A DNA stretch of 58,892 nt, from positions 1 to 58,892 of the IMG/VR virus record IMGVR_UViG_3300007516_000020; one strand, 5' to 3'. Under the pieces are notes generated by a model. That model had not been told where the DNA came from and did not search any database. It saw only the letters and a list, made by a program, of their open reading frames with translations. This document shows positions 3,933-48,008 of the stretch, piece after piece (the stretch's first letter is position 1; every line of letters starts with the position of its first letter). This DNA is from a virus (taxonomy: Duplodnaviria; Caudoviricetes). The position numbers were made by a program, and so were the translations under genes.

Positions 3933-5390
3933 ATGAAGAAGCTGTTCGCCGCGATAGTATTTGCCATGACATTGGCATGTTTGCCATTGATGGCAGATGC
4001 AAAAGACCTATATGTTCGTGCCCTACCAGCCTGTGCCCTTTCGGGCAATGGATTCGAATATGGCTGTGCAACAGTCGCCGGTGGGGTGGGAGCTATTCGC
4101 GGAACCGCCGCAATCCCATGGGCAACCGTCGTGCCTAATGATAAAGTAATCATTTGTGGTGTACATGAAATCACTAATCCCGCGTTTCGAGTGACCCCTA
4201 CGGTCAGTGGAGCGTTAGGGAAGCCTATCACAATCACTGGTTCATGCGTGAATGATCCTGGTGTACTTGACGGTATGAACCATGCCGCTGGTATCCGTCT
4301 TATCAATCTTGGAAGTGCTGGACCTATCAATCATTTTGTGATTGATGGATTGTGGATCAGAAACGTACCCAATACCACTGACTATGCTCTTTCGGGTCAC
4401 GACAATGCAGCGGGCGGAGTTGTAGATCGTCATATCACAATTGTCAACAATCGATTCACCAACATCGGCTGGATTGGTATGTGGCTATGGGGATCAGAAT
4501 TCACGGTCGTGAATAACACTCTTGATGGTGTCGGCGACGATGCAATTTATGTGAAGGGCGGAAAGAATACTGTCATTGCTGGAAACAAAGTCATAAATGT
4601 CAGTACGAATGGTATTGGGGGAGATTGTATCCAATTCGATTCAGCGGCAACACAGGGCACGATTGGAACAGGTACCGTTATCGTGAGTGATAACCTCTGT
4701 GACAAACGCGGCGGCACGAATGTGAAGTATGGGGTATTAGTGGGACCAGTGACAGGATTGACCGTCATTGAAAATAACAAGATTTACTGCCCAGCACCTT
4801 CCACACTTCAGACAGCGTGTAGCCCAATCTACATCAATGCAGCGGGTACCGCAAAGACCGCACAAGTGATCATCCGAGGCAACTTCGTCTCAATGGGATG
4901 GAGAGGTATCACACTCGCAACCGCGGATAATCCTAATGTGCGCCATCATCTGACAGGTAACGTGATTGAGAAAGCAGGAACATTTGGTGTATGGCTGGAT
5001 GCAAACACCGATAATGTTGATGTCACCAACAATGTATTTGGACAGAATGCTGATGTGGGATTGTATCTTGGTAAAGTGTCAACCACCCATCGCATTGAGA
5101 ATAACATATTCTACGGAAACGCTAAGGGTATCTTCTACTTGAATGCCCCAAGTCGTGGACATAAGTATAATGACTTCTTTCAGAATAGCGTAGCGAATAT
5201 CACAGATTCGTCGGGACCAAAGGCTCTTGATGCAACCGACGTGACTATTGATCCCCAGTTTACATTCACAACGGATTGGAAGCTTCCAGCAGATTCGATC
5301 CTGCGTAATGTTGGACAACCATTGCCCCTTCTCTGTCTCGATAAGGTCTTAGGGTATTGCTGGACACCAGCGAACCTGGGCGCATACTAA
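3933..5390 (+). CDS. exported right-handed parallel beta-helix (pectin-lyase-like) protein
   Basis: Sec-type signal peptide MKKLFAAIVF...ADA; repeated xxNNxx beta-helix rungs; AGGAGG RBS. Confidence 0.75.
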   Translation: MKKLFAAIVFAMTLACLPLMADAKDLYVRALPACALSGNGFEYGCATVAGGVGAIRGTAAIPWATVVPNDKVIICGVHEITNPAFRVTPTVSGALGKPITITGSCVNDPGVLDGMNHAAGIRLINLGSAGPINHFVIDGLWIRNVPNTTDYALSGHDNAAGGVVDRHITIVNNRFTNIGWIGMWLWGSEFTVVNNTLDGVGDDAIYVKGGKNTVIAGNKVINVSTNGIGGDCIQFDSAATQGTIGTGTVIVSDNLCDKRGGTNVKYGVLVGPVTGLTVIENNKIYCPAPSTLQTACSPIYINAAGTAKTAQVIIRGNFVSMGWRGITLATADNPNVRHHLTGNVIEKAGTFGVWLDANTDNVDVTNNVFGQNADVGLYLGKVSTTHRIENNIFYGNAKGIFYLNAPSRGHKYNDFFQNSVANITDSSGPKALDATDVTIDPQFTFTTDWKLPADSILRNVGQPLPLLCLDKVLGYCWTPANLGAY

Positions 5391-5416
5391 GTTCGTCTTT
5401 ATTATGGGGTGATGTG

Positions 5417-5974
5417 ATGTTGCCAGAATTTGAGTCATTCAAGAAAATTCCCAGGCTCAGCCGTGTGTGTACCGTCACAGAAAAGCTGGACGGTACCAAC
5501 GGTCAGATCCTTATCACTGAGGATGGACTGTTATACGCTGGCAGCCATCGCCGCTGGCTCTTGACCCCCGAAGGGTTGGGTGAAGATAACCATGGATTCG
5601 GTCGCTGGGTGCTTGAGCACAAGGACGAACTCCTCCTAGGCCTGGGTATCGGTCGACACTACGGAGAGTGGTGGGGACAAGGTATACAGCGAAAGTATGG
5701 TTTGACTGAGAAACGATTCTCATTGTTCAATACGCATATGTGGGGCGACGAGACTGTCAGACCTGCTTGTTGCTCTGTGGTGCCTGTGTTGTACAAAGGA
5801 ATGTTCGATCAGATCATCATACAGGATTGCCTGAATGGTTTGGGGAAAAATGGAAGTGTGGCCTCCCCAGGATTCATGAAACCAGAGGGTGTTGTGATTT
5901 ACCACGAAGCGGCAAAGACATATTTCAAGAAGACTATCGAAGGGGACGAGAAACCCAAAGGGTCGCAAGAATGA
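5417..5974 (+). CDS. Rnl2-like ATP-dependent RNA ligase (adenylation domain)
   Basis: FxKIPRL, TEKLDGTN (motif I), YGEWWG, EGVVI. Confidence 0.8.
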   Translation: MLPEFESFKKIPRLSRVCTVTEKLDGTNGQILITEDGLLYAGSHRRWLLTPEGLGEDNHGFGRWVLEHKDELLLGLGIGRHYGEWWGQGIQRKYGLTEKRFSLFNTHMWGDETVRPACCSVVPVLYKGMFDQIIIQDCLNGLGKNGSVASPGFMKPEGVVIYHEAAKTYFKKTIEGDEKPKGSQE

Positions 5975-6244: not shown

Positions 6245-6272
6245 TTGACATCTTACCCCAATCTGTTATACT
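6245..6272 (+). promoter_or_regulatory. sigma70-type promoter
   Basis: TTGACA-16-TATACT with TGn. Confidence 0.7.
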
Positions 6273-6327: not shown

Positions 6328-6516
6328 ATGAACAAGCCTAAACTGAAATTGATTGGGAAGGATGGGAATGCGTTCATGGTACTCGGTCTTGCCAAGAAAG
6401 CCGCAGACCGAGCGAAGTGGCCCAAGGAGAAGTGGGAAGGTGTTCGTAAAGAGATGTTGGCGGGAAACTACTCCCATCTGTTAGCAGTAGCAAAGGAACA
6501 CTTTGACGTTTCATAA
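6328..6516 (+). CDS. conserved phage hypothetical protein (GxDGNAF motif)
   Basis: LIGKDGNAFMVLG...GNYSHLL. Confidence 0.7.
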   Translation: MNKPKLKLIGKDGNAFMVLGLAKKAADRAKWPKEKWEGVRKEMLAGNYSHLLAVAKEHFDVS

Positions 6517-6737
6517 ACGTGTGTCGTGTCTGTTCGGCGGGATTGGAGAAGTGTACGCAGCAAAGAAGTCTAAATAGATGAATGCACAAAGCTGACACCA
6601 TGGAAATACAACTTCTCAAGCAACTAGAAACGCTGACCGATAGGCATGGCAGTTTCTCGTTGGCTAATCCAGCAGCCCAAGCAAAGATGCGAGCGGTGGT
6701 CATTCAATTTCTTTCGAAGGCTGGTAAAAAATAGTTG

Positions 6738-6766
6738 TTGACAATGACCCGCGGTTGTGTTATCAT
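6738..6766 (+). promoter_or_regulatory. sigma70-type promoter
   Basis: TTGACA-17-TATCAT. Confidence 0.6.
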
Positions 6767-6792
6767 GTGCCTATAACTTGGTAAGGAGTAAC

Positions 6793-7029
6793 ATGGTAAA
6801 GAATGATTCTGACATTATCGAGACTGCCGATCCTCTGTATGGTACGGGCAACATGGTCGTACTCAAGTACATGGCACTAGAGGATCCGTGGACTGTGGAG
6901 AACAGTTCTTGGGATTTTCTTCAGAAGTCGTGGACTTACACAATTTCGAAGCCAGCAATCGGTGCAGAAATTCGCGAAGGCCGGGCATTTGAAAACGATC
7001 TGAGGCTGGTTTCTTTGGGACGAAAGTAA
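6793..7029 (+). CDS. hypothetical protein
   Basis: TAAGGAG RBS before ATG 6793. Confidence 0.6.
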   Translation: MVKNDSDIIETADPLYGTGNMVVLKYMALEDPWTVENSSWDFLQKSWTYTISKPAIGAEIREGRAFENDLRLVSLGRK

Positions 7030-7035
7030 AAGTTG

Positions 7036-7043
7036 TATAAATA
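7036..7043 (+). promoter_or_regulatory. T4-type late promoter upstream of tRNA operon
   Basis: TATAAATA. Confidence 0.6.
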
Positions 7044-7055
7044 GAAAGAAAGTGC

Positions 7056-7084
7056 TTGACATTGAGGAATGGTTGTGTTATACT
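7056..7084 (+). promoter_or_regulatory. sigma70-type promoter of tRNA operon leader
   Basis: TTGACA-17-TATACT with TGn. Confidence 0.8.
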
Positions 7085-7128
7085 CCTCAGTACGATGCAC
7101 AAACGATTTAGCGAAACAATAGGAAGAT

Positions 7129-7242
7129 ATGCAGCAACTAGATTTGACCGATACGAAACTGAATACCCCCGAATGCCCATCACCTGTAAGATATACAGCA
7201 TGGCAGGCGTCTAAGATTCAATTCGGAGGTATGAAAGCCTAA
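7129..7242 (+). CDS. putative 37-aa leader peptide MQQLDLTDTKLNTPECPSPVRYTAWQASKIQFGGMKA
   Basis: AGGA 4 nt before ATG; lies between promoter and terminator. Confidence 0.45.
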   Translation: MQQLDLTDTKLNTPECPSPVRYTAWQASKIQFGGMKA

Positions 7243-7283
7243 GTCCTCGTTACCCATCTCCCGGGTAACTGGGAAAGTCGAAG

Positions 7284-7317
7284 AAAGCCAGGGAGAAATC
7301 TCTGGCTTTTTGTTTTT
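7284..7317 (+). terminator. intrinsic terminator/attenuator immediately before first tRNA
   Basis: 11-bp stem aaagccaggga/tctctggcttt, GAAA loop, U-tract. Confidence 0.8.
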
Positions 7318-7318
7318 C

Positions 7319-7392
7319 GGGGCCATCGTCCAATAGGAAGATAGCTGAATGGCATTCAGCAGACGAGGGGGCGGTACCCTCTGGCTCCACCA
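7319..7392 (+). tRNA. tRNA-Ala(GGC)
   Basis: cloverleaf, G3:U70, CCA; T-loop GGCGGTA. Confidence 0.85.
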
Positions 7393-7399
7393 CAAATAT

Positions 7400-7475
7400 G
7401 CGCTGGTACTCTAACTAGCAAGGGGCCCACCCGATAAGTGGGAATATGTGAGTGCAAATCTCACCCGGCGCACCA
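7400..7475 (+). tRNA. tRNA-Ile(GAT), C33
   Basis: cccac-cc GAT aa-gtggg; CCA. Confidence 0.85.
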
Positions 7476-7482
7476 AGCGTAT

Positions 7483-7556
7483 ATGGGATAAGTGTTACAG
7501 CAGCACAGTAGTCTCCAAAACTACGGGCGCAGGTGCGACTCCTGCATCCCATGCCA
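7483..7556 (+). tRNA. tRNA-Trp(CCA)
   Basis: gtagt-ct CCA aa-actac; G73 CCA. Confidence 0.9.
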
Positions 7557-7574
7557 AAAGAAGAGGAATGTATC

Positions 7575-8102
7575 ATGTTGTCAATGACTTTGTTACTCAA
7601 CACCACCTATGAACCTATCCAGGTCGTTGGTTGGCAGCGAGCGATTACCCTGTTGTTTCAGGGAAAGTGTGAAGTCCTTGAGGAACACGATGAAGAAATC
7701 CATTCGATTTCTTTCACGATGAAGATTCCTTCAGTACTCAGAATGTTGATGCCAGCAAGGATCAAGCGTAAGGTCCCAGTGAAGTTCACCAGGTTGAACA
7801 TCTTTACGCGAGACGGTTGGAAGTGTCAATACTGCGGCGACAAGTTTTCCAGCAATGAATTGACTTTCGACCATGTTGTTCCTGTGACTCAGGGTGGCCG
7901 TAAAAGTTGGGAAAACATCACGACCGCGTGCGTGGACTGTAACTCTCGGAAGGCTGGGCGTACTCCTCAGCAAGCAGGAATGAAGCTCTTGAAGAAGCCC
8001 AAGCAGCCTATGTGGTCACAAGTAATCACTGTTACCGCGGGGCTACGAAAGACCCCTGATAACTGGGCATCATACTTGTACTGGAATGTTGAGCTGACAT
8101 AA
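7575..8102 (+). CDS. HNH endonuclease (McrA-like)
   Basis: RDGWKCQYCG, TFDHVVP, WENITTACVDCNSRK. Confidence 0.9.
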   Translation: MLSMTLLLNTTYEPIQVVGWQRAITLLFQGKCEVLEEHDEEIHSISFTMKIPSVLRMLMPARIKRKVPVKFTRLNIFTRDGWKCQYCGDKFSSNELTFDHVVPVTQGGRKSWENITTACVDCNSRKAGRTPQQAGMKLLKKPKQPMWSQVITVTAGLRKTPDNWASYLYWNVELT

Positions 8103-8107
8103 ATCCT

Positions 8108-8197
8108 GTGGAGTGGTGTAAACACCAAGCACGATAAACGCAGAGGGGAAGACCCTCAAATGCGGGATAAGTAGGAGTCTAGAAATCTCCTCTCCAC
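8108..8197 (+). ncRNA. tRNA-like structured RNA without CCA
   Basis: gtggag/ctccac closing stem plus three hairpins. Confidence 0.45.
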
Positions 8198-8209
8198 TGA
8201 AAATAGTTC

Positions 8210-8238
8210 TTGACAAACGGTTCGGAATTTGTTATAGT
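8210..8238 (+). promoter_or_regulatory. sigma70-type promoter
   Basis: TTGACA-17-TATAGT. Confidence 0.7.
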
Positions 8239-8267
8239 AAGAGAGTGAGATAAGAAATTGAGAGTTT

Positions 8268-8343
8268 GCCGCTGTGAGTCAGATAGTTGATTGCCTCTCT
8301 TGTAAGGAGGATTAGGCTGGTGCAAGTCCAGTCAGCGGCTCCA
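8268..8343 (+). tRNA. tRNA-Thr(TGT)
   Basis: cctct-ct TGT aa-ggagg; CCA. Confidence 0.88.
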
Positions 8344-8560
8344 TTGTTGATAGGCAATCCAACGTAGTGTTGGATGGGACGCCAGGGAAAGTGCCACGTG
8401 CAACTCTTTCCCAGTCAGCGGCTCCATTGTTGATAGGCAATCCAACGTAGTGTTGGATGGGACGCCAGGGAAAGTGCCACGTGCAACTCTTTTCCGGTCA
8501 GCGGCTCCATTGTTGATAGGCAAACCAACGTAGTGTTGGATGGGACGCCAGGGAAAGTGC
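8331..8560 (+). repeat. 83-bp tandem repeat (about 2.8 copies) beginning with the tRNA-Thr 3' end
   Basis: gtcagcggctccattgttgatagg starts at 8331, 8414, 8497. Confidence 0.92.
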
Positions 8561-8653
8561 AACTCTTTCAGACCCTATCGAATAGCGCGGAAATGGGTGT
8601 AGCGCGATACAAATAGCCCGTACATTTTCCTCTTGAGAAACAGAGGATCGATT

Positions 8654-8728
8654 GTGATCGTAGCATAAGTAGTAATGCGCTAGTTTGTGGCACTAGTTAA
8701 GAGGGTGCAAGTCCCTTCGATCACCCCA
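8654..8728 (+). tRNA. tRNA-His(GTG)
   Basis: ctagt-tt GTG gc-actag; C73; -1 base is T. Confidence 0.88.
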
Positions 8729-8758
8729 TAGCCAATCATGACGATTGGCACGAAGCAT

Positions 8759-8808
8759 GATAGCATCCACCTGAGACGTGGACTGTGAGCAACAGGGAAA
8801 CTGCTATC
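8759..8808 (+). ncRNA. unidentified three-way-junction RNA with CTGAGAC loop
   Basis: gatagca/tgctatc, tccac/gtgga, ctgt/acag. Confidence 0.4.
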
Positions 8809-8815
8809 GATATAC

Positions 8816-8891
8816 GGGCCCTTAGCTCATTCAGGAGAGCGCCGCACTTGCAATGCGGAGGTGGTCGGAGCAAAGCCGACAGGGTCCACCA
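8816..8891 (+). tRNA. tRNA-Ala(TGC)
   Basis: ccgca-ct TGC aa-tgcgg; G3:U70. Confidence 0.9.
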
Positions 8892-8950
8892 TAAAGTCCT
8901 GGTAGGGATTTAGAAGGCAGAATATCGGGACCAGAATTTTGAGAAAATAT

Positions 8951-9025
8951 CTAGGTGTGGGTCAATGGCAGACCACTCGGTTTGGGGCCGAGACCATGCA
9001 GGTTCGAGTCCTGTCACCTAGACCA
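8951..9025 (+). tRNA. tRNA-Pro(TGG)
   Basis: ctcgg-tt TGG gg-ccgag; C1:G72. Confidence 0.92.
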
Positions 9026-9097
9026 CTAACTCGGCACAATCGCTATTGTGCGATGCCCCCACGGTTCGGTGGGGTTAGAGTGCCGGCACTAAAATAC

Positions 9098-9172
9098 GCT
9101 CCCATCGAATACTGGCTAGTTCATCTGGCTTTCAACCAGAAAAAGAGAGATCGATACTCTCTGGGAGCACCA
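9098..9172 (+). tRNA. tRNA-Glu(TTC)
   Basis: tctgg-ct TTC aa-ccaga. Confidence 0.88.
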
Positions 9173-9183
9173 TTAGAATAGAC

Positions 9184-9261
9184 GCCGGCGTGAAGGGAAT
9201 TGGTATACCTGTTTGGTCGAGAGCCAGACGCTTGTGGGTTCGACTCCCACCGACGGCACCA
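9184..9261 (+). tRNA. tRNA-Leu(GAG), short variable loop, C33
   Basis: tttgg-tc GAG ag-ccaga; Leu-type D-loop GGTATAC; A73; one acceptor mismatch. Confidence 0.7.
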
Positions 9262-9271
9262 AAAGAATTAT

Positions 9272-9347
9272 AGCGGGTGGATGGGGATAGTTCTCCTATT
9301 GGGCTCATAACCCGATGTCCGTAGTGCAATTCTACGACCCGCAACCA
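9272..9347 (+). tRNA. initiator tRNA-fMet(CAT)
   Basis: three G:C pairs in anticodon stem; 1:72 mismatch. Confidence 0.85.
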
Positions 9348-9355
9348 CATAGTAC

Positions 9356-9429
9356 TGCGGTAAGCACAAGCGTAGCAGAACGATTTCATAAGTCGTTTCT
9401 AGAGGGTGCGACTCCCTCTACCGCAACCA
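9356..9429 (+). tRNA. tRNA-Met(CAT) elongator (Ile2 not excluded)
   Basis: acgat-tt CAT aa-gtcgt; weak D-stem. Confidence 0.75.
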
Positions 9430-9436
9430 ACTTTGT

Positions 9437-9513
9437 GCGCCTGTAGCCCAACGGCAGGAGGCGACGGTCTTAGAAGCCGTACAGTACAGGTTCAAATCCT
9501 GTCAGGCGCACCA
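9437..9513 (+). tRNA. tRNA-Leu(TAG), short variable loop
   Basis: acggt-ct TAG aa-gccgt. Confidence 0.88.
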
Positions 9514-9525
9514 TAATAGAATTAT

Positions 9526-9600
9526 GGGTTGCAAGCTTTCAAAGTGAAGCTCCCGGCTTTTAACCGGAGGAACTCGGCGCGATACCGAGGCGACCCACCA
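9526..9600 (+). tRNA. tRNA-Lys(TTT)
   Basis: ccgg-ct TTT aa-ccgg; T-loop CGCGATA. Confidence 0.85.
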
Positions 9601-9673
9601 ACGAATTGCTCAGTGTACGAGTCAATGGAAGTTGTTTTGATGTCTTTGACTCAGATACGAAGCACGAATTTAG

Positions 9674-9740
9674 CGAGGCTCTACAATTACTGAGACACCG
9701 TAGAGCGTAAAGGGAAATGGAGTTAGTAATTTCCCCCTCG
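9674..9740 (+). ncRNA. unidentified junction RNA with CTGAGAC-containing loop
   Basis: cgag/ctcg, gctctac/gtagagc, gggaaat/atttccc. Confidence 0.4.
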
Positions 9741-9749
9741 TAAAGTCAC

Positions 9750-9839
9750 GCACCCGCGCCTTGATAGGCAGAGGGGCCTTATAAGCCCGTCGCTCTAGAT
9801 CAGAGCCTTGACTGGGTTTGATTCCCAGCGGGTGTACCA
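9750..9839 (+). tRNA. non-canonical long-variable-arm tRNA with UAU anticodon (allo-tRNA-like)
   Basis: gggc-ct TAT aa-gccc; V-arm gctct/agagc; 4-nt D-loop; folds as 7/5 or 8/4; CCA. Confidence 0.75.
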
Positions 9840-9859
9840 TACATATAAAGGGGATGCTC

Positions 9860-10072
9860 ATGAAGGTCAAGGACAGAAACTTAAAAGTTTTGGTCGATGT
9901 AGCCGAGAAAGGTTGTCAGGGGTTCAAGTGCTACTGGCCGCGCCCAGACCCAGGCGTCTTCACTCAAGGCTCTGGATATCGGTCCCGCGACCCATCTGGC
10001 AAAACCAAGCCCGGTTGGTTGTGCGGCACCCGAGAAATACGTGGTTGCCCGGACAATCCTGTACCACGATAG
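9860..10072 (+). CDS. small Cys-containing hypothetical protein
   Basis: AAGGGG RBS; part of ORF 9818..10072. Confidence 0.5.
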   Translation: MKVKDRNLKVLVDVAEKGCQGFKCYWPRPDPGVFTQGSGYRSRDPSGKTKPGWLCGTREIRGCPDNPVPR

Positions 10073-10145
10073 ATGACCCGAAACACAGGGATTCTGGTGT
10101 ACACAAGTGTACACATTAGAATTCTCTAATGTTGAAGAAAAGCCC

Positions 10146-10173
10146 TTGACTTATTTCCTCGTTATGCTATAAT
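10146..10173 (+). promoter_or_regulatory. sigma70-type promoter
   Basis: TTGACT-16-TATAAT with TGn. Confidence 0.7.
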
Positions 10174-10186
10174 TAGAGCATAGGGA

Positions 10187-10402
10187 ATGGAGAACAAGAT
10201 GACTGAGAACAAAAATAGGAACATCATCATTGCCCAGTTCACCAACCACGATGATGCAATGACCGCATTCGTTGTTGAGTCGTTTCTAGGTGGATACGGT
10301 GTCTCCCTTCGCGACGACGACTCCGGCGAGTTCGTCGGATTCGCGATCCACGGCATCAAGAGCTTAGGGACCGCGATTGCTAAGGCGAAGGAAGTGCTTT
10401 AA
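10187..10402 (+). CDS. hypothetical protein
   Basis: promoter upstream; start 10187 or 10199. Confidence 0.65.
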   Translation: MENKMTENKNRNIIIAQFTNHDDAMTAFVVESFLGGYGVSLRDDDSGEFVGFAIHGIKSLGTAIAKAKEVL

Positions 10403-10462
10403 ATAAGGCTTGTATTAGTGATAACGTAGTCTATAGTGTTTTCAACGCAAAGGAGACTTATA

Positions 10463-10738
10463 ATGGAAATGTCAGAGCATGAATTGGTGACGGTCTCGAC
10501 GCCTGGTGGGGACCTACATTATCGCCTGCACGATGGCGAGATTGTTCAACAATGGGTCGAGGGAGAGGGAGAGTGGGTGGATCAAACCAGTAGTGGGCCG
10601 AAAGATGAAGTGGCATTGACCCAACTCTCGGTGACTCCTGGCCATGTATTTTACGCGACGAGGTTCGGGGAACGGTGGCAGTGGGTTCAGACGACAGAAC
10701 AGTGGATGATGGTCACCGGCAAACATATTTCGGCGTGA
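10463..10738 (+). CDS. hypothetical protein
   Basis: AAGGAG RBS. Confidence 0.65.
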   Translation: MEMSEHELVTVSTPGGDLHYRLHDGEIVQQWVEGEGEWVDQTSSGPKDEVALTQLSVTPGHVFYATRFGERWQWVQTTEQWMMVTGKHISA

Positions 10739-10752
10739 AGAGACTCAATAAC

Positions 10753-10836
10753 GGAGGTATAGTCTCGTACGGCGCGAGGGCTGGCTGTAAACCAGTTGTT
10801 AATACCCAGAGGGTTCGATTCCTTCTACCTCCACCA
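10753..10836 (+). tRNA. tRNA-Tyr(GTA)
   Basis: gctgg-ct GTA aa-ccagt. Confidence 0.88.
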
Positions 10837-10845
10837 TAATGCCAA

Positions 10846-10929
10846 TAGTCACTGTGAAGAGACTCAAGAGTAGTAGCATACCGCGGGGAAGGCATGGGGG
10901 AGGACCTGGTTCAATTCCAGGCATGACTA
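10846..10929 (+). ncRNA. tRNA-like RNA or pseudo-tRNA with intact T-arm, no CCA
   Basis: tagtca/tgacta closing stem; cctgg-ttcaatt-ccagg. Confidence 0.45.
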
Positions 10930-11060
10930 CATAAGATCAGATATCTTGTAGGCATATAAGATGTACAGCGTGTAGGCATACAAGCTGTGTGGCGTGTACA
11001 GCCGTGATCGGAGTAGTCATGGAGTATGATGGATTGTATACCCCTGTATTTTGGAGTCAG

Positions 11061-11204
11061 ATGAAAGTTTACAAGAAGAAGCGCCGAAGTTGCCCAATGT
11101 GCAAACCAAATAAGATGGGGATAGAGCCCTGTTGGACAGCGAAGGATCTTGATAGACTGAAGCGAATGGAAAAGGAAGCGAGAGAAATAAAGAGAACAGA
11201 TTAG
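11061..11204 (+). CDS. small basic protein with CxxC (RSCPMCKP)
   Basis: GGAG RBS; 3' part of ORF 10989..11204. Confidence 0.5.
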   Translation: MKVYKKKRRSCPMCKPNKMGIEPCWTAKDLDRLKRMEKEAREIKRTD

Positions 11205-11210
11205 AAATAT

Positions 11211-11286
11211 GCACTCGGAGCCTGTAGGATGGGCGCTTGATTGTCAATCAAGAATAAAGCGGGATCGTTACCCGTCGAGTGCGCCA
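11211..11286 (+). tRNA. tRNA-Asp(GTC)
   Basis: cttga-tt GTC aa-tcaag; G73. Confidence 0.85.
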
Positions 11287-11290
11287 TGAT

Positions 11291-11364
11291 GTCGATGTAG
11301 CCAAGGGGATTGGCACCGGTCTGCAAAACCGTTTACGTTGGTTCGATTCCAACCATCGACTCCA
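11291..11364 (+). tRNA. tRNA-Cys(GCA)
   Basis: cggt-ct GCA aa-accg; U73. Confidence 0.9.
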
Positions 11365-11372
11365 TACAATAC

Positions 11373-11447
11373 GCACTGCAAGCATTAGTGGTGATGCTTC
11401 CGGCTCTTAACCGGAAGAACCGAGTTCGACTCTCGGGCGGTGCACCA
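11373..11447 (+). tRNA. tRNA-Lys(CTT)
   Basis: tccgg-ct CTT aa-ccgga. Confidence 0.9.
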
Positions 11448-11450
11448 TAT

Positions 11451-11524
11451 AGGGATATCGTCTAATAGCAAGACAACAGGCTTTGAACCTGTGAACCTAG
11501 GGGCGGTACCTAGTATCCCTTCCA
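11451..11524 (+). tRNA. tRNA-Gln(TTG)
   Basis: acagg-ct TTG aa-cctgt; T-loop GGCGGTA. Confidence 0.85.
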
Positions 11525-11535
11525 TAGAGGTTATC

Positions 11536-12048
11536 ATGACAGTCTTTTTGACAGCGGATACACATTTCGGCCACGCGGGTATCTGTACATTCTTGAATGC
11601 AGATGGAACGAAAGTGCGACCCTGGACTGATGTTGCCGAGATGGATGAAGAGTTGGTCAAGCGGTGGAATGAAGTCGTAAAGCCAACAGACAAAGTGTAT
11701 CACCTGGGCGATGTGGTGATCAGCCGAAAGGCACTAGCGATCCTGGGTCGTTTGAATGGGGACAAGGTACTTATCAAGGGAAATCATGACATCTTCAAGG
11801 TGTCTGACTATCTGAAGTATTTTCGTGATATCCGTAGTTACCATGTGACGGATAAGCTGATTTTATCGCATATCCCTATTCACCCCGATAGCAAAGGTCG
11901 CTTTCGTGGAAATGTTCATGGACACTTGCATGGGCGAGCATTAGAGGATACGTGGTATCAGTGTGTATGTGTTGAGCATACAGATTATCGACCAATTGCT
12001 TTTGAGGAGATTCAAAGAAGGACTAACAAAGGAATTATTGCGGATTAG
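11536..12048 (+). CDS. calcineurin-like metallophosphoesterase
   Basis: DTHFGH, HLGDV, KGNHD, SHIP, HGHLH; stop lies inside next tRNA. Confidence 0.9.
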   Translation: MTVFLTADTHFGHAGICTFLNADGTKVRPWTDVAEMDEELVKRWNEVVKPTDKVYHLGDVVISRKALAILGRLNGDKVLIKGNHDIFKVSDYLKYFRDIRSYHVTDKLILSHIPIHPDSKGRFRGNVHGHLHGRALEDTWYQCVCVEHTDYRPIAFEEIQRRTNKGIIAD

Positions 12049-12112
12049 CCAAACGGCCAGGCAGTGGACTCTGAATCCACCTAACAAGGTTCGACTCCTT
12101 GATCCGCAACCA
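12039..12112 (+). tRNA. tRNA-Gln(CTG)
   Basis: gtgga-ct CTG aa-tccac; U1:A72. Confidence 0.9.
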
Positions 12113-12129
12113 AATATCGCAGAATGTAT

Positions 12130-12207
12130 TCCGGTCTAGCATTCAGGGTGAGTGCGCTCCGCTGTTAACGGAGAACGAGCCAGGTTCGATCCCTGGGACC
12201 GGAGCCA
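12130..12207 (+). tRNA. tRNA-Asn(GTT)
   Basis: ctccg-ct GTT aa-cggag; G73. Confidence 0.9.
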
Positions 12208-12211
12208 ACAT

Positions 12212-12285
12212 GCTCCTATAGCACAATGGTAGTGCGACCGCCTGAAGAGCGGTACACCGAGGTTCGATTCCTCGTGGGAGCGCCA
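12212..12285 (+). tRNA. tRNA-Phe(GAA)
   Basis: accgc-ct GAA ga-gcggt. Confidence 0.88.
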
Positions 12286-12292
12286 AGAGAAT

Positions 12293-12367
12293 GCGGGTGT
12301 GGCAGAATGGTTTTGCACTTCCTTGCCAAGGAAGACTACGCGGGTTCGATCCCCGCCACCCGCTCCA
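12293..12367 (+). tRNA. tRNA-Gly(GCC)
   Basis: cttcc-tt GCC aa-ggaag; U73. Confidence 0.92.
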
Positions 12368-12544
12368 TTAGAGATCCAGGGCGTAGGAAAGTCGCCCCTC
12401 AAGAAACAATAGAGAAAATTCGACAAGGTGTTTTGAAATATAATGCGGGTTTGGTATAGAAGCTGTGCCTCAGCCTTCCAAGCTGAAGAGGCCGTTGCGA
12501 GTACGGCAACCCGCTCCATTAGAGATCCAGGGCGTAGGAAAGTC
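12358..12544 (+). repeat. 36-bp direct repeat (12358-12393 and 12509-12544): Gly 3' end, spacer, Pro 5' end
   Basis: acccgctccattagagatccagggcgtaggaaagtc twice. Confidence 0.9.
12445..12518 (+). tRNA. tRNA-Gly(TCC)
   Basis: tcagc-ct TCC aa-gctga; U73. Confidence 0.85.
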
Positions 12545-12605
12545 TGGTTGATCCTCTCCCCTCGGAAGGGAGAAATCGGTGGTTCAAATCCACCCGCCCT
12601 GACCA
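12528..12605 (+). tRNA. tRNA-Pro(CGG)
   Basis: ctccc-ct CGG aa-gggag; C1:G72; A37. Confidence 0.9.
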
Positions 12606-12634
12606 AAATGAGTGCTTGACATTGATATACTATT

Positions 12635-12709
12635 GCCCTGTAAGACTAGAAAGCGAGTTGCCTGTTTCGTAAGCAGGAGAGAACGATGCAAGTTCGTTAC
12701 GGGGCTCCA
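12635..12709 (+). tRNA. tRNA-Thr(CGT)
   Basis: cctgt-tt CGT aa-gcagg. Confidence 0.82.
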
Positions 12710-12715
12710 TTATAT

Positions 12716-12792
12716 GCTGGTGTAGACCAAGGGCAGAGTCACCAAACTTAAAATCTGGACAAGTGCAGGTTCGATTCCTGTCACCAGCACCA
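12716..12792 (+). tRNA. tRNA-Leu(TAA), short variable loop
   Basis: ccaaa-ct TAA aa-tctgg. Confidence 0.82.
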
Positions 12793-12796
12793 ATAC

Positions 12797-12873
12797 GCCG
12801 AAGTGATGCAACTGGCAGACATGGCTGATTCAAAACCAGTCTCTTGTGGGTTCGACTCCCACCTTCGGCACCA
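12797..12873 (+). tRNA. tRNA-Leu(CAA), short variable loop
   Basis: gctga-tt CAA aa-ccagt; GGCAGAC D-loop. Confidence 0.82.
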
Positions 12874-12918
12874 ATGCGTAGATTAGAGTAGGTTTTCTCC
12901 GCAAAATAGAAAGGAAAA

Positions 12919-13198
12919 TAGGACAACTAAACCATCACAAGTCTTACGACTTGAGGAACTTCGGGACACCAAGAACAGGACAGTGGCTAACGACCACCCA
13001 GAGTAATCTGAGGATTAGAGCCACAGTGACGATGCCGCGCAAGCGGAGTGAAACGAGCAATCTCTGTCCGGTGCAACTCCAAATAGGCTGGTGTGCTGTT
13101 CGCACAAGACCCAGCGGGTAGGAGGCTTGAGGGTATCAGTAATGATACTCCTAGAGAAATGATGGTTCACGACAGAATCCCGGGTATCGGTTGTCCTA
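12919..13198 (+). ncRNA. rnpB: RNase P RNA, compact bacterial type A
   Basis: P1 taggacaac/gttgtccta; P2 aaccatca/tgatggtt; GAGGAACTTCGGGA pairs with ACAGAATCCCGGGT (P4); GCCACAG; GTGAAACG; CAAATAGG; CGGGTAG; P6 gaaca/tgttc; P18. Confidence 0.92.
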
Positions 13199-13206
13199 CA
13201 ATTTAC

Positions 13207-13281
13207 GCCCTCAAAGAATAGATAGCGATTCGCCACCTTGGTAAGGTGGATAGACCGGCGCAAGTCCGGTTGAGGGCTCCA
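13207..13281 (+). tRNA. tRNA-Thr(GGT)
   Basis: ccacc-tt GGT aa-ggtgg. Confidence 0.87.
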
Positions 13282-13289
13282 TGAAATAC

Positions 13290-13364
13290 GCACCGCGAGC
13301 CGGTTGAATAGGCACCTGCCCTACAAGCAGATTCAAAGAGGTTTGATTCCTCTGCGGTGCACCA
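13290..13364 (+). tRNA. tRNA-Val(TAC), C33
   Basis: ctgc-cc TAC aa-gcag. Confidence 0.82.
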
Positions 13365-13441
13365 TGAGGTTGCAATGACACGCAACCAGACCGAAGTGTT
13401 ACTAGAAGATATGTTTCAGTGCGCGGCCGTAAAGAAATAAT

Positions 13442-13518
13442 GTCCCTGTGGTCCAGATGGAAAAGACGCCTCCCTGCGAAGGAGGAGATCGGTGGTTCAA
13501 GTCCACCCAGGGACACCA
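13442..13518 (+). tRNA. tRNA-Arg(GCG)
   Basis: cctcc-ct GCG aa-ggagg; A20. Confidence 0.88.
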
Positions 13519-13643
13519 TAAGAAAGGAACGTGATTGGACGTTCCTATTTTGATCGGGGATCTATGTTTGCTTTTACATTGCTGTTCTTATATGAGTTTT
13601 TTCTGTTTAGGCAAGCAGCAAAGTACTACGGTATGAAATAGAG

Positions 13644-13731
13644 GGAAGATTGGCAGAGAGGCCTATTGCGCTGGTTTGCTAAACCATGCGGGGTAACACC
13701 CACGAAGGTTCGAATCCTTCATCTTCCGCCA
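13644..13731 (+). tRNA. tRNA-Ser(GCT)
   Basis: long V-arm, G73, tt GCT aa. Confidence 0.92.
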
Positions 13732-13737
13732 TGTTTT

Positions 13738-13825
13738 GGAAGGTTCACCGGACAGGCGCGCCGGGACCGTCTCGAAAGCGGATCGAGGGTAACACCTTGG
13801 GGATCAAGACCTCAGCCTTCCGCCA
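13738..13825 (+). tRNA. tRNA-Ser(CGA)
   Basis: long V-arm, G73, ct CGA aa. Confidence 0.85.
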
Positions 13826-13842
13826 TTGTTATGAAAGGATAT

Positions 13843-14196
13843 ATGTCTCTTTTTGATGTTCTTGGTAATCCTAATAAGACTCCTGTCATATCCGCGGCCG
13901 TGGAATTGTACGCTGAGAGGTTGGAGGAACAAAATCATCGAGTGAAGATATTCGACACACCAAAGGGATTGTGTATGTCGTGTTACATGTCGCACATTTA
14001 TCGGTCACCGAAACTCGAAGGTGGGAACTGGCATATCACTTGTACGGTTCCCAAAGGACCATCACTCATTATGCCCGACGATATCTCTTACTGCAATCGC
14101 TTCGAGAAGAAGGGTGAACAGACACTTGATGATATGAAGCGGGTAGCAAGACTCATTGAAAAAGAAGATGGGAAAAAGGTTGGATTCACGGCATAA
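13843..14196 (+). CDS. hypothetical protein with CxxC (possible Zn-binding)
   Basis: AAGGA RBS; 3' part of ORF 13666..14196. Confidence 0.65.
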   Translation: MSLFDVLGNPNKTPVISAAVELYAERLEEQNHRVKIFDTPKGLCMSCYMSHIYRSPKLEGGNWHITCTVPKGPSLIMPDDISYCNRFEKKGEQTLDDMKRVARLIEKEDGKKVGFTA

Positions 14197-14199
14197 TAT

Positions 14200-14287
14200 G
14201 GAAGAGTGACCGAGAGGCTAATGGTGCTCGCTTGGAAAGCGATGCGGTGTAACAGCCACGCAGGTTCAAATCCTGTCTCTTCCGCCA
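14200..14287 (+). tRNA. tRNA-Ser(GGA)
   Basis: long V-arm, G73, tt GGA aa. Confidence 0.92.
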
Positions 14288-14297
14288 TAATTAGTGC

Positions 14298-14326
14298 TTG
14301 ACATTCTTAGTCAGTTTGTGTATAAT
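14298..14326 (+). promoter_or_regulatory. consensus sigma70 promoter abutting tRNA-Ser(TGA)
   Basis: TTGACA-17-TATAAT. Confidence 0.7.
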
Positions 14327-14327
14327 T

Positions 14328-14417
14328 GGAAGTGTAATCAGGCGAGCGTACTGGGACCGCCTTGAAAGCGGATCGGCGGTGAAAGCCGTTGGGGTGCAAG
14401 TCCTCACACTTCCGCCA
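14328..14417 (+). tRNA. tRNA-Ser(TGA)
   Basis: long V-arm, G73, ct TGA aa. Confidence 0.87.
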
Positions 14418-14750
14418 TTTTATATGAAGGATGTGTTGTGTCTAATCTATTGTGGCTAGCCCTGGGTCTGTTGGTATGGTGTAAGAGGAAACCCATGTTG
14501 AAATTGAAATTTGAATTGTCCGATGAGGACTGGAAAAAGGTTAATCGGTTCATACGAAAACAGGACAAGCTCACTGGCACCGGCGCAAATTATGGAGCGA
14601 TTGGTGGAGGTTATACCTACCAATTTACACCTACCTCGTTGGGGGTCATAGTCAAAGTTGAGAATTGTGTGACAAAGGCATCCATCAATCTGACAGATTT
14701 TGATAGCTGGTAACAGCGTTGGGGTGCAAGTCCTCACACTTCCGCCATTT
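14387..14750 (+). repeat. 34-bp direct repeat of tRNA-Ser 3' end (14387-14420, 14717-14750) flanking one ORF
   Basis: cgttggggtgcaagtcctcacacttccgccattt twice. Confidence 0.92.
14495..14713 (+). CDS. conserved phage hypothetical protein (GAIGGGYTYQFTPTSLG)
   Basis: GAGG RBS; motif common in phage ORFs. Confidence 0.7.
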   Translation: MLKLKFELSDEDWKKVNRFIRKQDKLTGTGANYGAIGGGYTYQFTPTSLGVIVKVENCVTKASINLTDFDSW

Positions 14751-14811
14751 GGATAATTATGGAAGTTGTAGTCACATCGGGGTTGTGGTTTGAGAGATAG
14801 AATCATAATTT

Positions 14812-15155
14812 GGGGGTGAATTAGGTATCGACAGAGGCGTATAGAGAAGAACGGACATGCCGTGGACCAGGACCACGTAAATACTTGGAAAAACCAGAAA
14901 TGCCGAACAAGAGTTTGCATTAGCGGCATAAACGCCGCTCTCTGAAAGACCAAGAGGCTCCTGTAGGTCTGGAAGGGTCATTCATTGGAGGCACAGTGAT
15001 AAAGGCTAGCATGGTAGAGTGTTAGCTGAGTGTCAATCTACCACAGATCATATAAGGTGTCAGTCCCTTATGTGAGCGTTGTAAGACTGACTAGCATGGA
15101 ATATCCACTTTGACGTTGCTTTTGGACCCGGGTGCAACTCCCGGCACCTCCACCA
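14812..15155 (+). ncRNA. ssrA: tmRNA; tag reading frame 14902-14931 encodes AEQEFALAA*
   Basis: GGGGGTG/CACCTCC-ACCA with G3:U; 5' GGTATCGAC; 3' GGACCCGGGTGCAACTCCCGG; ALAA-ending tag. Confidence 0.95.
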
Positions 15156-15238
15156 ATTCATTCGCTCGACTGCCATGTGTAGGAAATGGGCATACGAGAG
15201 GGACCCTCAAGACTTCAGATTGGGGTCCCAGCTTTTAC

Positions 15239-15312
15239 GCTCCCATAGATTATTAGTAGATCGCTGGATTCTCAATCCAGAGAGCCGGGGGCAGTACCCG
15301 GTGGGAGCACCA
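15239..15312 (+). tRNA. tRNA-Glu(CTC)
   Basis: ctgga-tt CTC aa-tccag. Confidence 0.87.
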
Positions 15313-15318
15313 AAATAT

Positions 15319-15394
15319 GTCCCTGTGGGCCAACTGAAAGGTCACCCGCCTTCTAAGCGGGATTATGCGAGTTTGAGTCTCGCCGGGGACACCA
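15319..15394 (+). tRNA. tRNA-Arg(TCT)
   Basis: cccgc-ct TCT aa-gcggg. Confidence 0.87.
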
Positions 15395-15463
15395 AAGTAT
15401 ATTATGAGATTGACAGAAATCAAGCGCGAATTCAGAGGTTCAAACTGGAATGAAAGAATAAAC

Positions 15464-15538
15464 GCCGCTGTAGCCTAGTGTACAGGCACCTGCCTCCTAA
15501 GCGGGATAACGTGGGTTAGATTCCCACCAGTGGCACCA
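15464..15538 (+). tRNA. tRNA-Arg(CCT)
   Basis: cctgc-ct CCT aa-gcggg. Confidence 0.87.
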
Positions 15539-15544
15539 CATAAC

Positions 15545-15622
15545 CTCCCTGTGATGGCAATTGGACGCCGACCGCGCTTCGAACGCGGGATTATGTAGGT
15601 TCGAATCCTATCAGGGAGACCA
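15545..15622 (+). tRNA. tRNA-Arg(TCG)
   Basis: ccgcg-ct TCG aa-cgcgg. Confidence 0.85.
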
Positions 15623-17221: not shown

Positions 17222-17250
17222 TTGACAACGTGCCTAGACTCTGTTATACT
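17222..17250 (+). promoter_or_regulatory. sigma70-type promoter
   Basis: TTGACA-17-TATACT with TGn. Confidence 0.75.
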
Positions 17251-17256
17251 TATAAC

Positions 17257-19526: not shown

Positions 19527-19728
19527 AAGTTACTTCCCCATTCCCTTTGACCGATGGTATACCGAGAATCTGCCTGATATTCGTCGTGAGTTTAGCAAAG
19601 ATGGTCTGGATAAATTGAGGAATAGTCCAGAAAAGTTTGCTGCCTTGTTATACACTCTCAGGGTGGAGCACGATCAGAAGCGATGGACCAATTACTTGCA
19701 GTTTGTTGAGGATAATTATGTCGTATAA
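19516..19728 (+). CDS. hypothetical protein
   Basis: overlapping operon spacing. Confidence 0.55.
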   Translation: MLTKSYFPIPFDRWYTENLPDIRREFSKDGLDKLRNSPEKFAALLYTLRVEHDQKRWTNYLQFVEDNYVV

Positions 19729-48000: not shown

Positions 48001-48008
48001 TATAAATA
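48001..48008 (+). promoter_or_regulatory. late promoter
   Basis: TATAAATA. Confidence 0.75.

What the first reader, a model, noticed from the sequence alone, without database searches (positions are those of the whole stretch)
7036..7318. Codon-sampling uORF plus attenuator gating the tRNA operon
Seen: late and sigma70 promoters, then a leader of about 230 nt, then a strong intrinsic terminator ending 1 nt before the first tRNA. The leader holds a 37-codon uORF (7129-7242) using 19 of 20 amino acids and, by my count, 31 distinct codons (3 Leu, 3 Thr, 3 Pro, 3 Ala, both Gln, both Lys). A second overlapping 39-codon ORF (7095-7214) includes His. Alternative pairings exist: the loop TCTCCC of hairpin gttaccc/gggtaac can pair with GGGAGA in the terminator, and the uORF-end AAAGCC can pair with GGCTTT. 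Known: ribosome-mediated attenuation (trp/his leaders, whiB7/wblC). Inference: a general sensor in which loss of almost any host tRNA stalls the ribosome and turns on the phage tRNA genes. Internal promoters (8210, 10146, 14298) mean it may gate only part of the array.
Basis: partly seen in the sequence, partly recalled or inferred. Interest (0 to 1): 0.85.

Follow-up and report, generated by a model that had tools for sequence, protein, structure and literature searches.

The report
All-amino-acid leader peptide before phage tRNAs
A phage tRNA gene array is headed by a tiny conserved gene whose 36-39-residue peptide almost always contains every one of the 20 amino acids, followed by a conserved hairpin and a terminator, which looks like a translation sensor for the tRNA genes but is untested.

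Summary
Nearly all of the described anatomy is real: a sigma70-like promoter (7056-7084), a 37-codon ORF (7129-7242; 19 amino acids, 31 codons), a hairpin (7244-7274), a strong terminator (7282-7311) and a tRNA-like gene starting at 7319.

The window alone is not exceptional: 4 of 101 similar-sized ORFs use 19 or more amino acids. The family is.
- The ORF is a conserved coding gene. There are 11 distinct homologues, core dN/dS is 0.16-0.51, and it is the only frame open in all 4 DNA homologues.
- 9 of 11 peptides contain all 20 amino acids and 2 lack only His. Background for 20 is 0.5-0.8%.
- R, H, V, F, Y and D move between columns yet are retained. Three null models give P of 0.0004 or less.

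Diversity of synonymous codons is not significant. The second ORF and the AAAGCC:GGCTTT pairing are not conserved.

The hairpin starts 1-3 nt after the stop codon. Its invariant loop UCUCCC is complementary to an invariant GGGAGA in the terminator.

No nested antiterminator exists: terminator pairing probability stays at 0.93 or above for every simulated ribosome position.

Best reading (0.45): an all-amino-acid translation-sensing leader that tunes read-through into the tRNA genes. The mechanism is inferred only. Main rival: an ordinary small early gene with a leaky terminator.

The parts
7036..7043 (+). TATAAATA, a possible T4-type late promoter
   Evidence: Exact match, one of 2 in the window against 0.99 expected. 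The other is at 48001, 30 nt before the 2078-aa ORF. The motif is conserved in L007 but not in L002 or L008. That TATAAATA is the T4 late consensus is recalled knowledge.
7056..7084 (+). Sigma70-like promoter TTGACA-17-TATACT with an extended TG
   Evidence: 11 of 12 matches. The homologous promoter is at the same place in L002 (11 of 12) and L008 (11 of 12). In L007 it reads TTGACT-17-TAGTCT and falls below the scan threshold.
7121..7126 (+). Shine-Dalgarno-like AGGAAG upstream of the ATG
   Evidence: Read. AGGAA is kept in L002 and L008; L007 has a weaker GAAAG.
7129..7242 (+). 37-codon leader ORF (MQQLDLTDTKLNTPECPSPVRYTAWQASKIQFGGMKA), a member of a conserved 36-39 aa all-amino-acid peptide family
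   Evidence: Core dN/dS is 0.16-0.51. It is the only frame open in all 4 DNA homologues. There are 11 members, of which 9 have all 20 amino acids.
7160..7220 (+). Predicted long imperfect hairpin inside the ORF (H0: TGAAT...ATTCA)
   Evidence: Present in the MFE fold of all 4 leaders. It is built mostly of invariant pairs, so it is not validated. Synonymous-site invariance is not linked to its pairing (Fisher p = 0.62).
7244..7274 (+). Hairpin H1. It begins 1 nt after the TAA stop. Loop AUCUCCC is at 7256-7262.
   Evidence: Present in the MFE fold of all 4 leaders. The stem sequences differ with compensatory changes: GUUACCC/GGGUAAC, UCACCC/GGGUGA, and ACUACC/GGUAGU plus CCGU/ACGG. The loop is invariant. 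H1 starts 1-3 nt after the stop codon in all 4.
7282..7318 (+). Intrinsic terminator T: 13-bp stem, GAAA loop and T-run. The invariant core GGGAGAAAUC is at 7291-7300.
   Evidence: The lower stem covaries (CG:2, GC:2 at one pair). GGGAGA (7291-7296) is complementary to the H1 loop UCUCCC (7257-7262).
7319..7393 (+). First gene of the array: a tRNA-like gene with Ala(GGC) anticodon, G3-U70, encoded CCA and an aberrant T-loop GGCGGUA
   Evidence: Rfam tRNA 38.3 bits. ARAGORN did not call it. Fold. Homologous sequence in L002, L007 and L008.

Best explanation
The region is a conserved leader module at the head of a T4-like phage's tRNA/tmRNA/RNase P RNA array. It runs: promoter, translated 36-39-codon ORF selected to contain every amino acid, hairpin H1 abutting the stop codon, intrinsic terminator T.

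Proposed working (inferred):
- The ORF acts as a translation test track. A ribosome that can decode all amino acids runs to the stop codon, where its footprint melts H1.
- A ribosome held up anywhere upstream, for lack of any charged tRNA, leaves H1 folded.
- The folded H1 presents its invariant loop UCUCCC to the invariant GGGAGA in the upper 5' strand of T. This would be an H-type pseudoknot with a 1-nt first loop and a linker of about 16 nt.
- That pairing hampers closure of the terminator, so RNA polymerase reads through into the tRNA genes.
- With H1 melted, T folds fully and transcription stops.

The direction of the switch and the pseudoknot are inference. The shown facts are the coding conservation, the all-amino-acid constraint, the H1 covariation and its spacing from the stop codon, the invariant complementary 6-mers, and the position of the module.
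For: (1) Coding.
- The frame is open in 4 of 4 DNA homologues and the two other frames have 1-5 stops each.
- There are in-frame indels, and core dN/dS is 0.16-0.51.
- A profile search of 1.84 billion representatives gave 7 true relatives at E from 1.5e-23 to 4.4e-6.

(2) All-amino-acid constraint.
- 9 of 11 members have 20 distinct residues in 36-39 residues; 2 have 19.
- Background P(20) is 0.5-0.8% in this phage's own long ORFs. It is 0.05-0.09% if the initiator Met is not counted, where 7 of 11 are still complete.
- Column permutation gives a mean of 2.68 complete members, with none of 20000 reaching 9.
- A tree-aware redraw gives a mean of 1.56, P = 0.0004.
- With the tree and each column's repertoire kept, the mean is 0.80 and none of 5000 reaches 9.
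- R sits in columns 2, 21, 29, 7 or 19; H in 5 or 22; V in 20, 7, 36, 33 or 37; F in 33, 26 or 28; Y in 22, 4, 20 or 6; D in 8, 5 or 29.

(3) H1 is in the MFE fold of 4 of 4 leaders, with compensatory stem changes. It starts 1-3 nt after the stop codon despite C-terminal indels.

(4) The H1 loop UCUCCC and the T core GGGAGA are invariant and complementary in 4 of 4, and form 7 bp in L007. My estimate for a chance perfect 6-mer complement is about 24/4096.

(5) The module is a single copy at the head of the array in 4 of 4 genomes, including one 100% complete genome.

(6) No sigma70-consensus promoter lies between T and the first three tRNA(-like) genes in 4 of 4. Those genes therefore need read-through of T.

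(7) Context is a tRNA-maintenance island: Rnl-type RNA ligase, RtcB, nucleotidyltransferase, RNase P RNA and tmRNA.

(8) AlphaFold2 on the 11-row alignment gives pLDDT 57 and no secondary structure. This is weak evidence against a folded protein.
Against: - With a 30-nt ribosome footprint masked at every codon, mean terminator pair probability never falls below 0.93 in any of 4 leaders. No nested antiterminator exists, and at equilibrium T should win. The 6-bp pseudoknot is not modelled and cannot be tested by covariation, because both sides are invariant.
- The direction of any switch is not determined by the sequence.
- The window's own peptide lacks His. 4 of 11 members lack His and/or an internal (elongator) Met.
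- Synonymous-codon diversity is not significant.
- Ten columns are invariant (M1 K10 L11 N12 E15 C16 W25 I30 Q31 G33). A pure composition sensor would not need this, and RNA pairing does not explain it.
- The distance from T to the first tRNA-like gene varies from 0 to about 325 nt, with inserted conserved sequence. Non-consensus promoters there are not excluded.
- There is no expression, Ribo-seq or termination data. The RNA runs that were laid held only relatives' tRNA parts.
- DNA is available for only 4 of the 11 members.
Confidence: 0.45

Rival explanations
1. An ordinary small early gene. The peptide is a trans-acting micro-protein with its own promoter. T simply ends the early small-gene cluster and leaks enough to express the first tRNAs. 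Its position before the array is synteny, not regulation.
For: - Three similar promoter-plus-small-ORF units lie just upstream, at 6245, 6738 and 7056.
- Ten peptide columns are invariant and there is a clear motif, DTKLNxxECPxPVxYxAWxASxxIQFG.
- Core dN/dS is 0.16-0.51.
- No nested antiterminator exists.
- The terminator is up to about 325 nt from the first tRNA-like gene in relatives.
Against: - It does not explain the retention of all 20 amino acids with relocation of six residue types.
- It does not explain the conserved 1-3 nt spacing between stop codon and H1, or the invariant complementary 6-mers in the H1 loop and T.
- No fold is predicted (pLDDT 57).
- No Pfam or PHROG family matches.
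Confidence: 0.3
2. The product is the signal. The all-amino-acid peptide is completed only when every charged tRNA is available, and the finished peptide acts in trans on phage gene expression. The terminator is not the regulated step.
For: This accounts for both the composition constraint and the conserved motif. It is also consistent with the absence of a nested RNA switch.
Against: - No partner or fold is known.
- It does not explain the H1/T conservation or the stop-to-H1 spacing.
- Any protein needs most amino acids, so a dedicated reporter peptide seems redundant.
Confidence: 0.12
3. A dual-function or 3'UTR-derived small RNA. H1, with its C-rich loop AUCUCCC, is a seed that pairs with Shine-Dalgarno-like GGGAGA/GGAG sites of other mRNAs. 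T is its Rho-independent 3' end.
For: The C/U-rich loop is invariant on a covarying stem, next to a terminator with a U-tail. That C-rich loops of this kind target ribosome-binding sites in known sRNAs is recalled knowledge.
Against: No Rfam family matches at E up to 1 or 0.1. No targets were searched for. It does not explain the peptide's composition constraint.
Confidence: 0.08
4. Chance: a random ORF in a long 5' leader ahead of a terminator.
For: In the window alone, 4 of 101 ORFs of similar size reach 19 or more amino acids.
Against: Conservation of the frame, dN/dS and 11 homologues, plus the family-level statistics.
Confidence: 0.02

Closest known systems
Leader-peptide transcription attenuators of amino-acid operons (trp, his, pheL; multivalent ilv leader)
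   Same: A short translated ORF is followed by an intrinsic terminator ahead of the controlled genes. The ribosome's position is thought to decide termination. (PMC1183508 and PMC3082878: abstracts seen in the listing. The details of trp, his and ilv are recalled.)
   Different: - There are no runs of one regulatory codon. Instead every amino acid is present once or a few times.
- No nested antiterminator alternative was found.
- The controlled genes are tRNA genes of a phage, not biosynthetic enzymes.
General translation-stress uORFs (E. coli toiL; actinobacterial whiB7/wblC leaders)
   Same: [quoted passage not shown] For the whiB7 uORF and alanine starvation I saw the listing and abstract only (10.1101/2023.06.02.543512).
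   Different: Per its abstract, toiL acts through ribosome-binding-site occlusion and Rho. No all-amino-acid composition constraint is described in the abstracts I saw. There is no homology: no Rfam or Pfam hit.
T-box riboswitches
   Same: A cis leader with a terminator that reports tRNA charging status (recalled knowledge).
   Different: A T-box binds one specific uncharged tRNA directly and has no ORF. No T-box hit appeared in the Rfam scan.
Phage tRNA arrays as counter-defence against tRNA-targeting nucleases
   Same: A large phage tRNA set sits next to RNA repair genes. Phage tRNAs are proposed to replace host tRNAs cleaved by anticodon nucleases (PMC10264068 and PMC11555353: abstracts seen).
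   Different: PMC10264068 has 0 occurrences of 'promoter', 'terminator', 'leader' or 'transcribed' in its main text. Regulation of such arrays by a leader is not treated there.

Membership tests
Ribosome-mediated transcription attenuator (leader-peptide type) | Short translated leader ORF upstream of the regulated genes | tested here: met
   Coding conservation is shown and the ORF has an SD-like AGGAAG. Translation itself was not observed.
Ribosome-mediated transcription attenuator (leader-peptide type) | Intrinsic terminator between the leader ORF and the regulated genes | tested here: met
   13-bp stem plus T-run at 7282-7318. It is conserved in 4 of 4.
Ribosome-mediated transcription attenuator (leader-peptide type) | Mutually exclusive antiterminator and terminator structures selected by ribosome position | tested here: not met
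   For nested structures, terminator pair probability is 0.93 or above at every ribosome position in 4 of 4 leaders. A loop-to-terminator pseudoknot (UCUCCC:GGGAGA) remains possible but cannot be tested with these tools.
Ribosome-mediated transcription attenuator (leader-peptide type) | Regulatory codons: clustered codons for the sensed amino acid | tested here: not met
   There are no runs. Instead 19-20 different amino acids occur in 36-39 residues.
General translation-stress uORF (toiL / whiB7 type) | Stalling at many positions in the uORF changes downstream expression | not testable with these tools
   This needs reporter or Ribo-seq data. The RNA runs that were laid did not cover the leader.
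Any curated RNA family (Rfam 15) | Covariance-model match over 7036-7318 | tested here: not met
   No hit in the leader at E up to 1, and none in the homologous leaders at E up to 0.1.
Any curated protein family (Pfam-A, PHROGs) | Profile match of the 37-aa peptide | tested here: not met
   0 families in Pfam and 0 in PHROGs.
Rho-independent terminator | G+C-rich stem-loop followed directly by a U-run | tested here: met
   13 pairs, 5 of them G-C, 4-nt loop, tail GTTTTTCGGG after a TTTTT in the stem. Fold.

The most novel reading that the evidence does not exclude
A pan-tRNA sentinel. The phage places in front of its tRNA/tmRNA/RNase P RNA island a leader peptide that must be decoded by all 20 amino-acid families. 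Loss of any charged tRNA stalls the ribosome; host anticodon nucleases or starvation are examples of causes. The stall leaves the H1 hairpin free to trap the terminator's GGGAGA in a pseudoknot, and that switches on the phage's own tRNA supply and repair genes. This would be the first attenuator built to sense all amino acids at once, and the first regulated phage tRNA array.
Probability: 0.33. Interest if true: 0.92.

Novelty: new variant of a known kind. Interest (0 to 1): 0.8.

Why it matters
Phage tRNA arrays are now seen as counter-measures to host tRNA-cleaving defences, but how they are controlled is largely unknown.

A leader peptide kept under selection to contain every amino acid would be a simple, general way to read out whether translation is complete. 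It would extend leader-peptide attenuation from one amino acid to all of them.

The composition constraint is also a rare case where selection acts on which residues are present rather than where they sit. It is directly testable with a cell-free system and gives a search rule for similar sensors elsewhere: short conserved ORF, all 20 residues, terminator.

In seven full-text searches I found no description of such a leader.

Tried and rejected
- BLASTN of 6500-8200 against INPHARED phages found no match.
- The upstream 78-aa protein used as an anchor found no relatives in IMG/VR.
- L003 and L004, which have an RNA ligase 55% identical, carry no tRNAs and no match to the leader model. They are uninformative.
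- The DNA pattern CCATCTCCC..GGGAGAAATC in IMG/VR returned 10 stretches. Two are the known relatives' contigs. The other 8 (four distinct sequences) have no homologous ORF and are chance matches.
- The genome-contig scan gave one hit, L010 in a Dehalococcoidia MAG. It matches residues 1-17 only, lies in an intergenic stretch with no tRNA nearby, and the ORF diverges completely afterwards. My estimate is about 10 chance matches for that degenerate pattern in 596 Gb, so I rejected it as chance.
- Profile hits P0008-P0011 (124-766 aa, E from 1e-5 to 4e-4, partial or repeat matches) were not counted as family members. I read only P0010. P0008, P0009 and P0011 were dropped on length and partial coverage alone.
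- I tested whether the invariant peptide columns are explained by the in-ORF hairpin H0. They are not (Fisher p = 0.62).
- Covariance model R1 forced L007 and L008 into the window's register, so I did not use its alignment for pair counts.
- Sequencing runs: the stretch is held by three freshwater DNA runs, one of which may be the source. X2 differs at one base (6752). Two sediment metatranscriptome runs held only contigs of relatives, over the tRNA-like, tRNA-Ile and HNH parts. They did not cover the leader. Nothing can be said about expression, ends or habitat.
- The structure model of the peptide had low confidence (pLDDT 57), so no fold search was run.
The DNA around P0002-P0007 and P0012 could therefore not be read.
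- Supplementary files of papers were not consulted.

Full report
WHAT IS IN THE WINDOW

The window is a 58,892-bp IMG/VR virus record, about 35% complete. It carries T4-like baseplate and tail genes.

From 7319 to 15622 it holds 27 tRNA genes called by ARAGORN, plus four more tRNA-like hits by Rfam. The same stretch holds a tmRNA and a class-A RNase P RNA. An Rnl-type RNA ligase lies upstream. A nucleotidyltransferase, a ligase and RtcB lie downstream.

The finding's anatomy is real:
- TATAAATA at 7036.
- TTGACA-17-TATACT at 7056-7084 (11 of 12).
- An SD-like AGGAAG.
- ATG at 7129 to TAA at 7240-7242: 37 codons, 19 amino acids, 31 codons.
- Hairpin H1 at 7244-7274.
- A 13-bp terminator T at 7282-7311 with a T-run.
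- A tRNA-like gene starting at 7319.

RELATIVES

An RNA-ligase anchor, and then the peptide itself, found three relatives with DNA:
- L002, from a 38.8-kb record.
- L007, from a 176-kb record rated 100% complete.
- L008, from a 174.7-kb metagenome contig.

All three have the same order: promoter, small ORF, hairpin, terminator, then tRNA-like Ala, tRNA-Ile, tRNA-Trp, an HNH gene and tRNA-His. The ORF occurs once in the complete genome.

THE ORF IS A GENE

- Only its frame is open in all four. The other two frames carry 1-5 stops in each.
- Indels are in frame.
- Pairwise dN/dS is 0.20-0.61 overall and 0.16-0.51 in the core.
- A profile search of 1.84 billion representative proteins gave 11 hits at E of 0.001 or better. 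Seven are full-length relatives (P0001, which equals L008, to P0007). I dropped four as partial matches in long or repetitive proteins.
- A second search added P0012.
- P0002 (53 aa) and P0003 (110 aa) were trimmed to the Met that aligns with the family start. This is my choice. Both are complete in composition either way.
- The overlapping ORF 7095-7214 is not conserved.

THE COMPOSITION CONSTRAINT

Counts across the 11 distinct peptides of 36-39 residues:
- 9 contain all 20 amino acids.
- 2 (the window and P0006) lack only His.
- Not counting the initiator Met, 7 of 11 are still complete, 3 have 19 and 1 has 18.

Background in the window's own long ORFs:
- P(20 in 37-39 residues) is 0.5-0.8% and P(19 or more) is 3-4%.
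- Without a forced Met, P(20) is 0.05-0.09%.

The relatives are kin, so I tested retention rather than occurrence:
- Permuting residues within columns gives a mean of 2.68 complete members. None of 20000 permutations reaches 9.
- Keeping a UPGMA tree and the parsimony events but redrawing each new residue gives a mean of 1.56 with P = 0.0004 (BLOSUM-conditional). With background frequencies, none of 5000 reaches 9.
- Keeping the tree and each column's own residue repertoire gives a mean of 0.80. The largest of 5000 is 8.

The reason is visible in the alignment. R, H, V, F, Y and D are lost from their usual columns in several lineages and reappear elsewhere.

Three points weaken the simple version of the claim:
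- The window by itself is not remarkable: 4 of 101 ORFs of 33-42 codons reach 19 or more.
- Given each peptide, the number of distinct synonymous codons is not unusual (P = 0.05, 0.57, 0.29, 0.23). The sampling is of amino acids, not codons.
- Ten columns are invariant, which composition alone does not require.

RNA FEATURES

- All four leaders fold (MFE) into an in-ORF hairpin H0, H1 and T.
- H1's stem differs between genomes with compensatory changes, and its loop AUCUCCC(C) is invariant.
- H1 begins 1, 1, 3 and 2 nt after the stop codon in the window, L002, L007 and L008, although the C-termini differ in length.
- T's lower stem covaries. Its upper part GGGAGAAAUC is invariant.
- UCUCCC and GGGAGA are complementary. 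L007 has 7 complementary bases.
- H0 is built mostly of invariant pairs, and synonymous-site invariance is not tied to it. I do not claim it.

TEST OF A CLASSICAL SWITCH

I masked a 30-nt footprint at each codon in turn and computed terminator pair probabilities. They stay between 0.93 and 0.98 in all four leaders, the same as with no ribosome. So there is no nested antiterminator.

What remains is a pseudoknot between the H1 loop and T's upper 5' strand. By my reading it is sterically plausible, but these tools do not model it, and covariation cannot test it because both sides never vary.

IS T PASSED?

In all four genomes no sigma70-consensus site lies on the + strand between T and the first three tRNA(-like) genes. 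Those genes need read-through of T, or promoters of a kind the scan does not know.

The gap between T and the first tRNA-like gene is about 0, 80, 210 and 325 nt. It is filled in the relatives by partly conserved sequence.

READING

Most likely (0.45) this is a translation-sensing leader. Completion of the all-amino-acid ORF brings a ribosome onto the foot of H1. A stall anywhere upstream leaves H1 intact, and H1's loop can then hold T's GGGAGA and lower termination.

The facts shown are the coding conservation, the composition constraint, the H1 covariation and spacing, the invariant complementary 6-mers, and the position of the module. The coupling and its direction are inferred.

Rivals:
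- A plain small early gene with a leaky terminator (0.30).
- A peptide whose completion is itself the signal (0.12).
- A small RNA with a C-rich seed loop (0.08).
- Chance (0.02).

COMPARISON AND NOVELTY

The module works like leader-peptide attenuators and like general stress uORFs such as toiL (PMC12121999, abstract read). It fails two defining features of the classical attenuator family, namely nested alternative structures and runs of regulatory codons. It matches no Rfam, Pfam or PHROG family.

Seven full-text searches turned up no all-amino-acid leader and no leader control of a phage tRNA array. PMC10264068 on phage tRNAs does not mention promoters, terminators or leaders in its main text. 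Supplements could not be read.

I rate it a new variant of a known kind.

LIMITS

- DNA is available for only four members.
- The trees are simple UPGMA and parsimony trees.
- There are no expression data.
- The host is unknown.

Noticed in passing
window 12919-13202 (+); also L022 10496-10798: A bacterial class-A RNase P RNA gene lies inside the phage tRNA array. It scores 180.7 bits in the window and 176.6 bits in the complete relative, against a gathering score of 100. A phage that carries its own tRNA-processing ribozyme seems unusual.
   Followed up: partly
window 14812-15155 (+); L022 7446-7797: A phage-encoded tmRNA with tag peptide AEQEFALAA lies in the same array (ARAGORN; Rfam 119.3 and 83.6 bits).
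   Followed up: partly
window 7319-7393, 11451-11525, 15239-15313 (+): Three tRNA-like genes that ARAGORN misses share an aberrant T-loop, GGCGGUA or GGCAGUA, in place of the usual TPsiC loop. By my fold their anticodons read GGC (Ala, with G3-U70), UUG (Gln) and CUC (Glu). They may be a special class of phage tRNA.
   Followed up: partly
window 8328-8560 (+): An 83-nt tandem repeat of 2.8 copies, 98% identical, lies just after the internal promoter at 8210 and before tRNA-His. Function unknown.
   Followed up: no
window 5357-5974, 17230-18195, 18197-19324, 19637-20908 (+): An RNA repair set flanks the array: an Rnl-type RNA ligase (Pfam RNA_ligase), a nucleotidyltransferase (phrog_388), an ATP-dependent ligase (phrog_114) and the RtcB tRNA-splicing ligase (phrog_1075).
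   Followed up: partly
window 7575-8102 (+); L002 9581-10108; L007 from about 3539: An HNH endonuclease gene sits between tRNA-Trp and tRNA-His at the same place in the window, L002 and L007, with closely similar N-termini. It therefore looks like a fixed resident rather than a recent mobile insertion.
   Followed up: no
L002 9096-9303; L007 3177-3256; L008 3191-3515: Variable inserts lie between the terminator and the first tRNA-like gene. They share a conserved hairpin-like element (GTCTAGTCAAC...GATTGACTA) that is absent from the window. No Rfam match.
   Followed up: no
window 48001-48008 (+): The only other TATAAATA in the window lies 30 nt upstream of the 2078-aa ORF (48031-54267). This fits a T4-type late promoter for a structural gene.
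   Followed up: no
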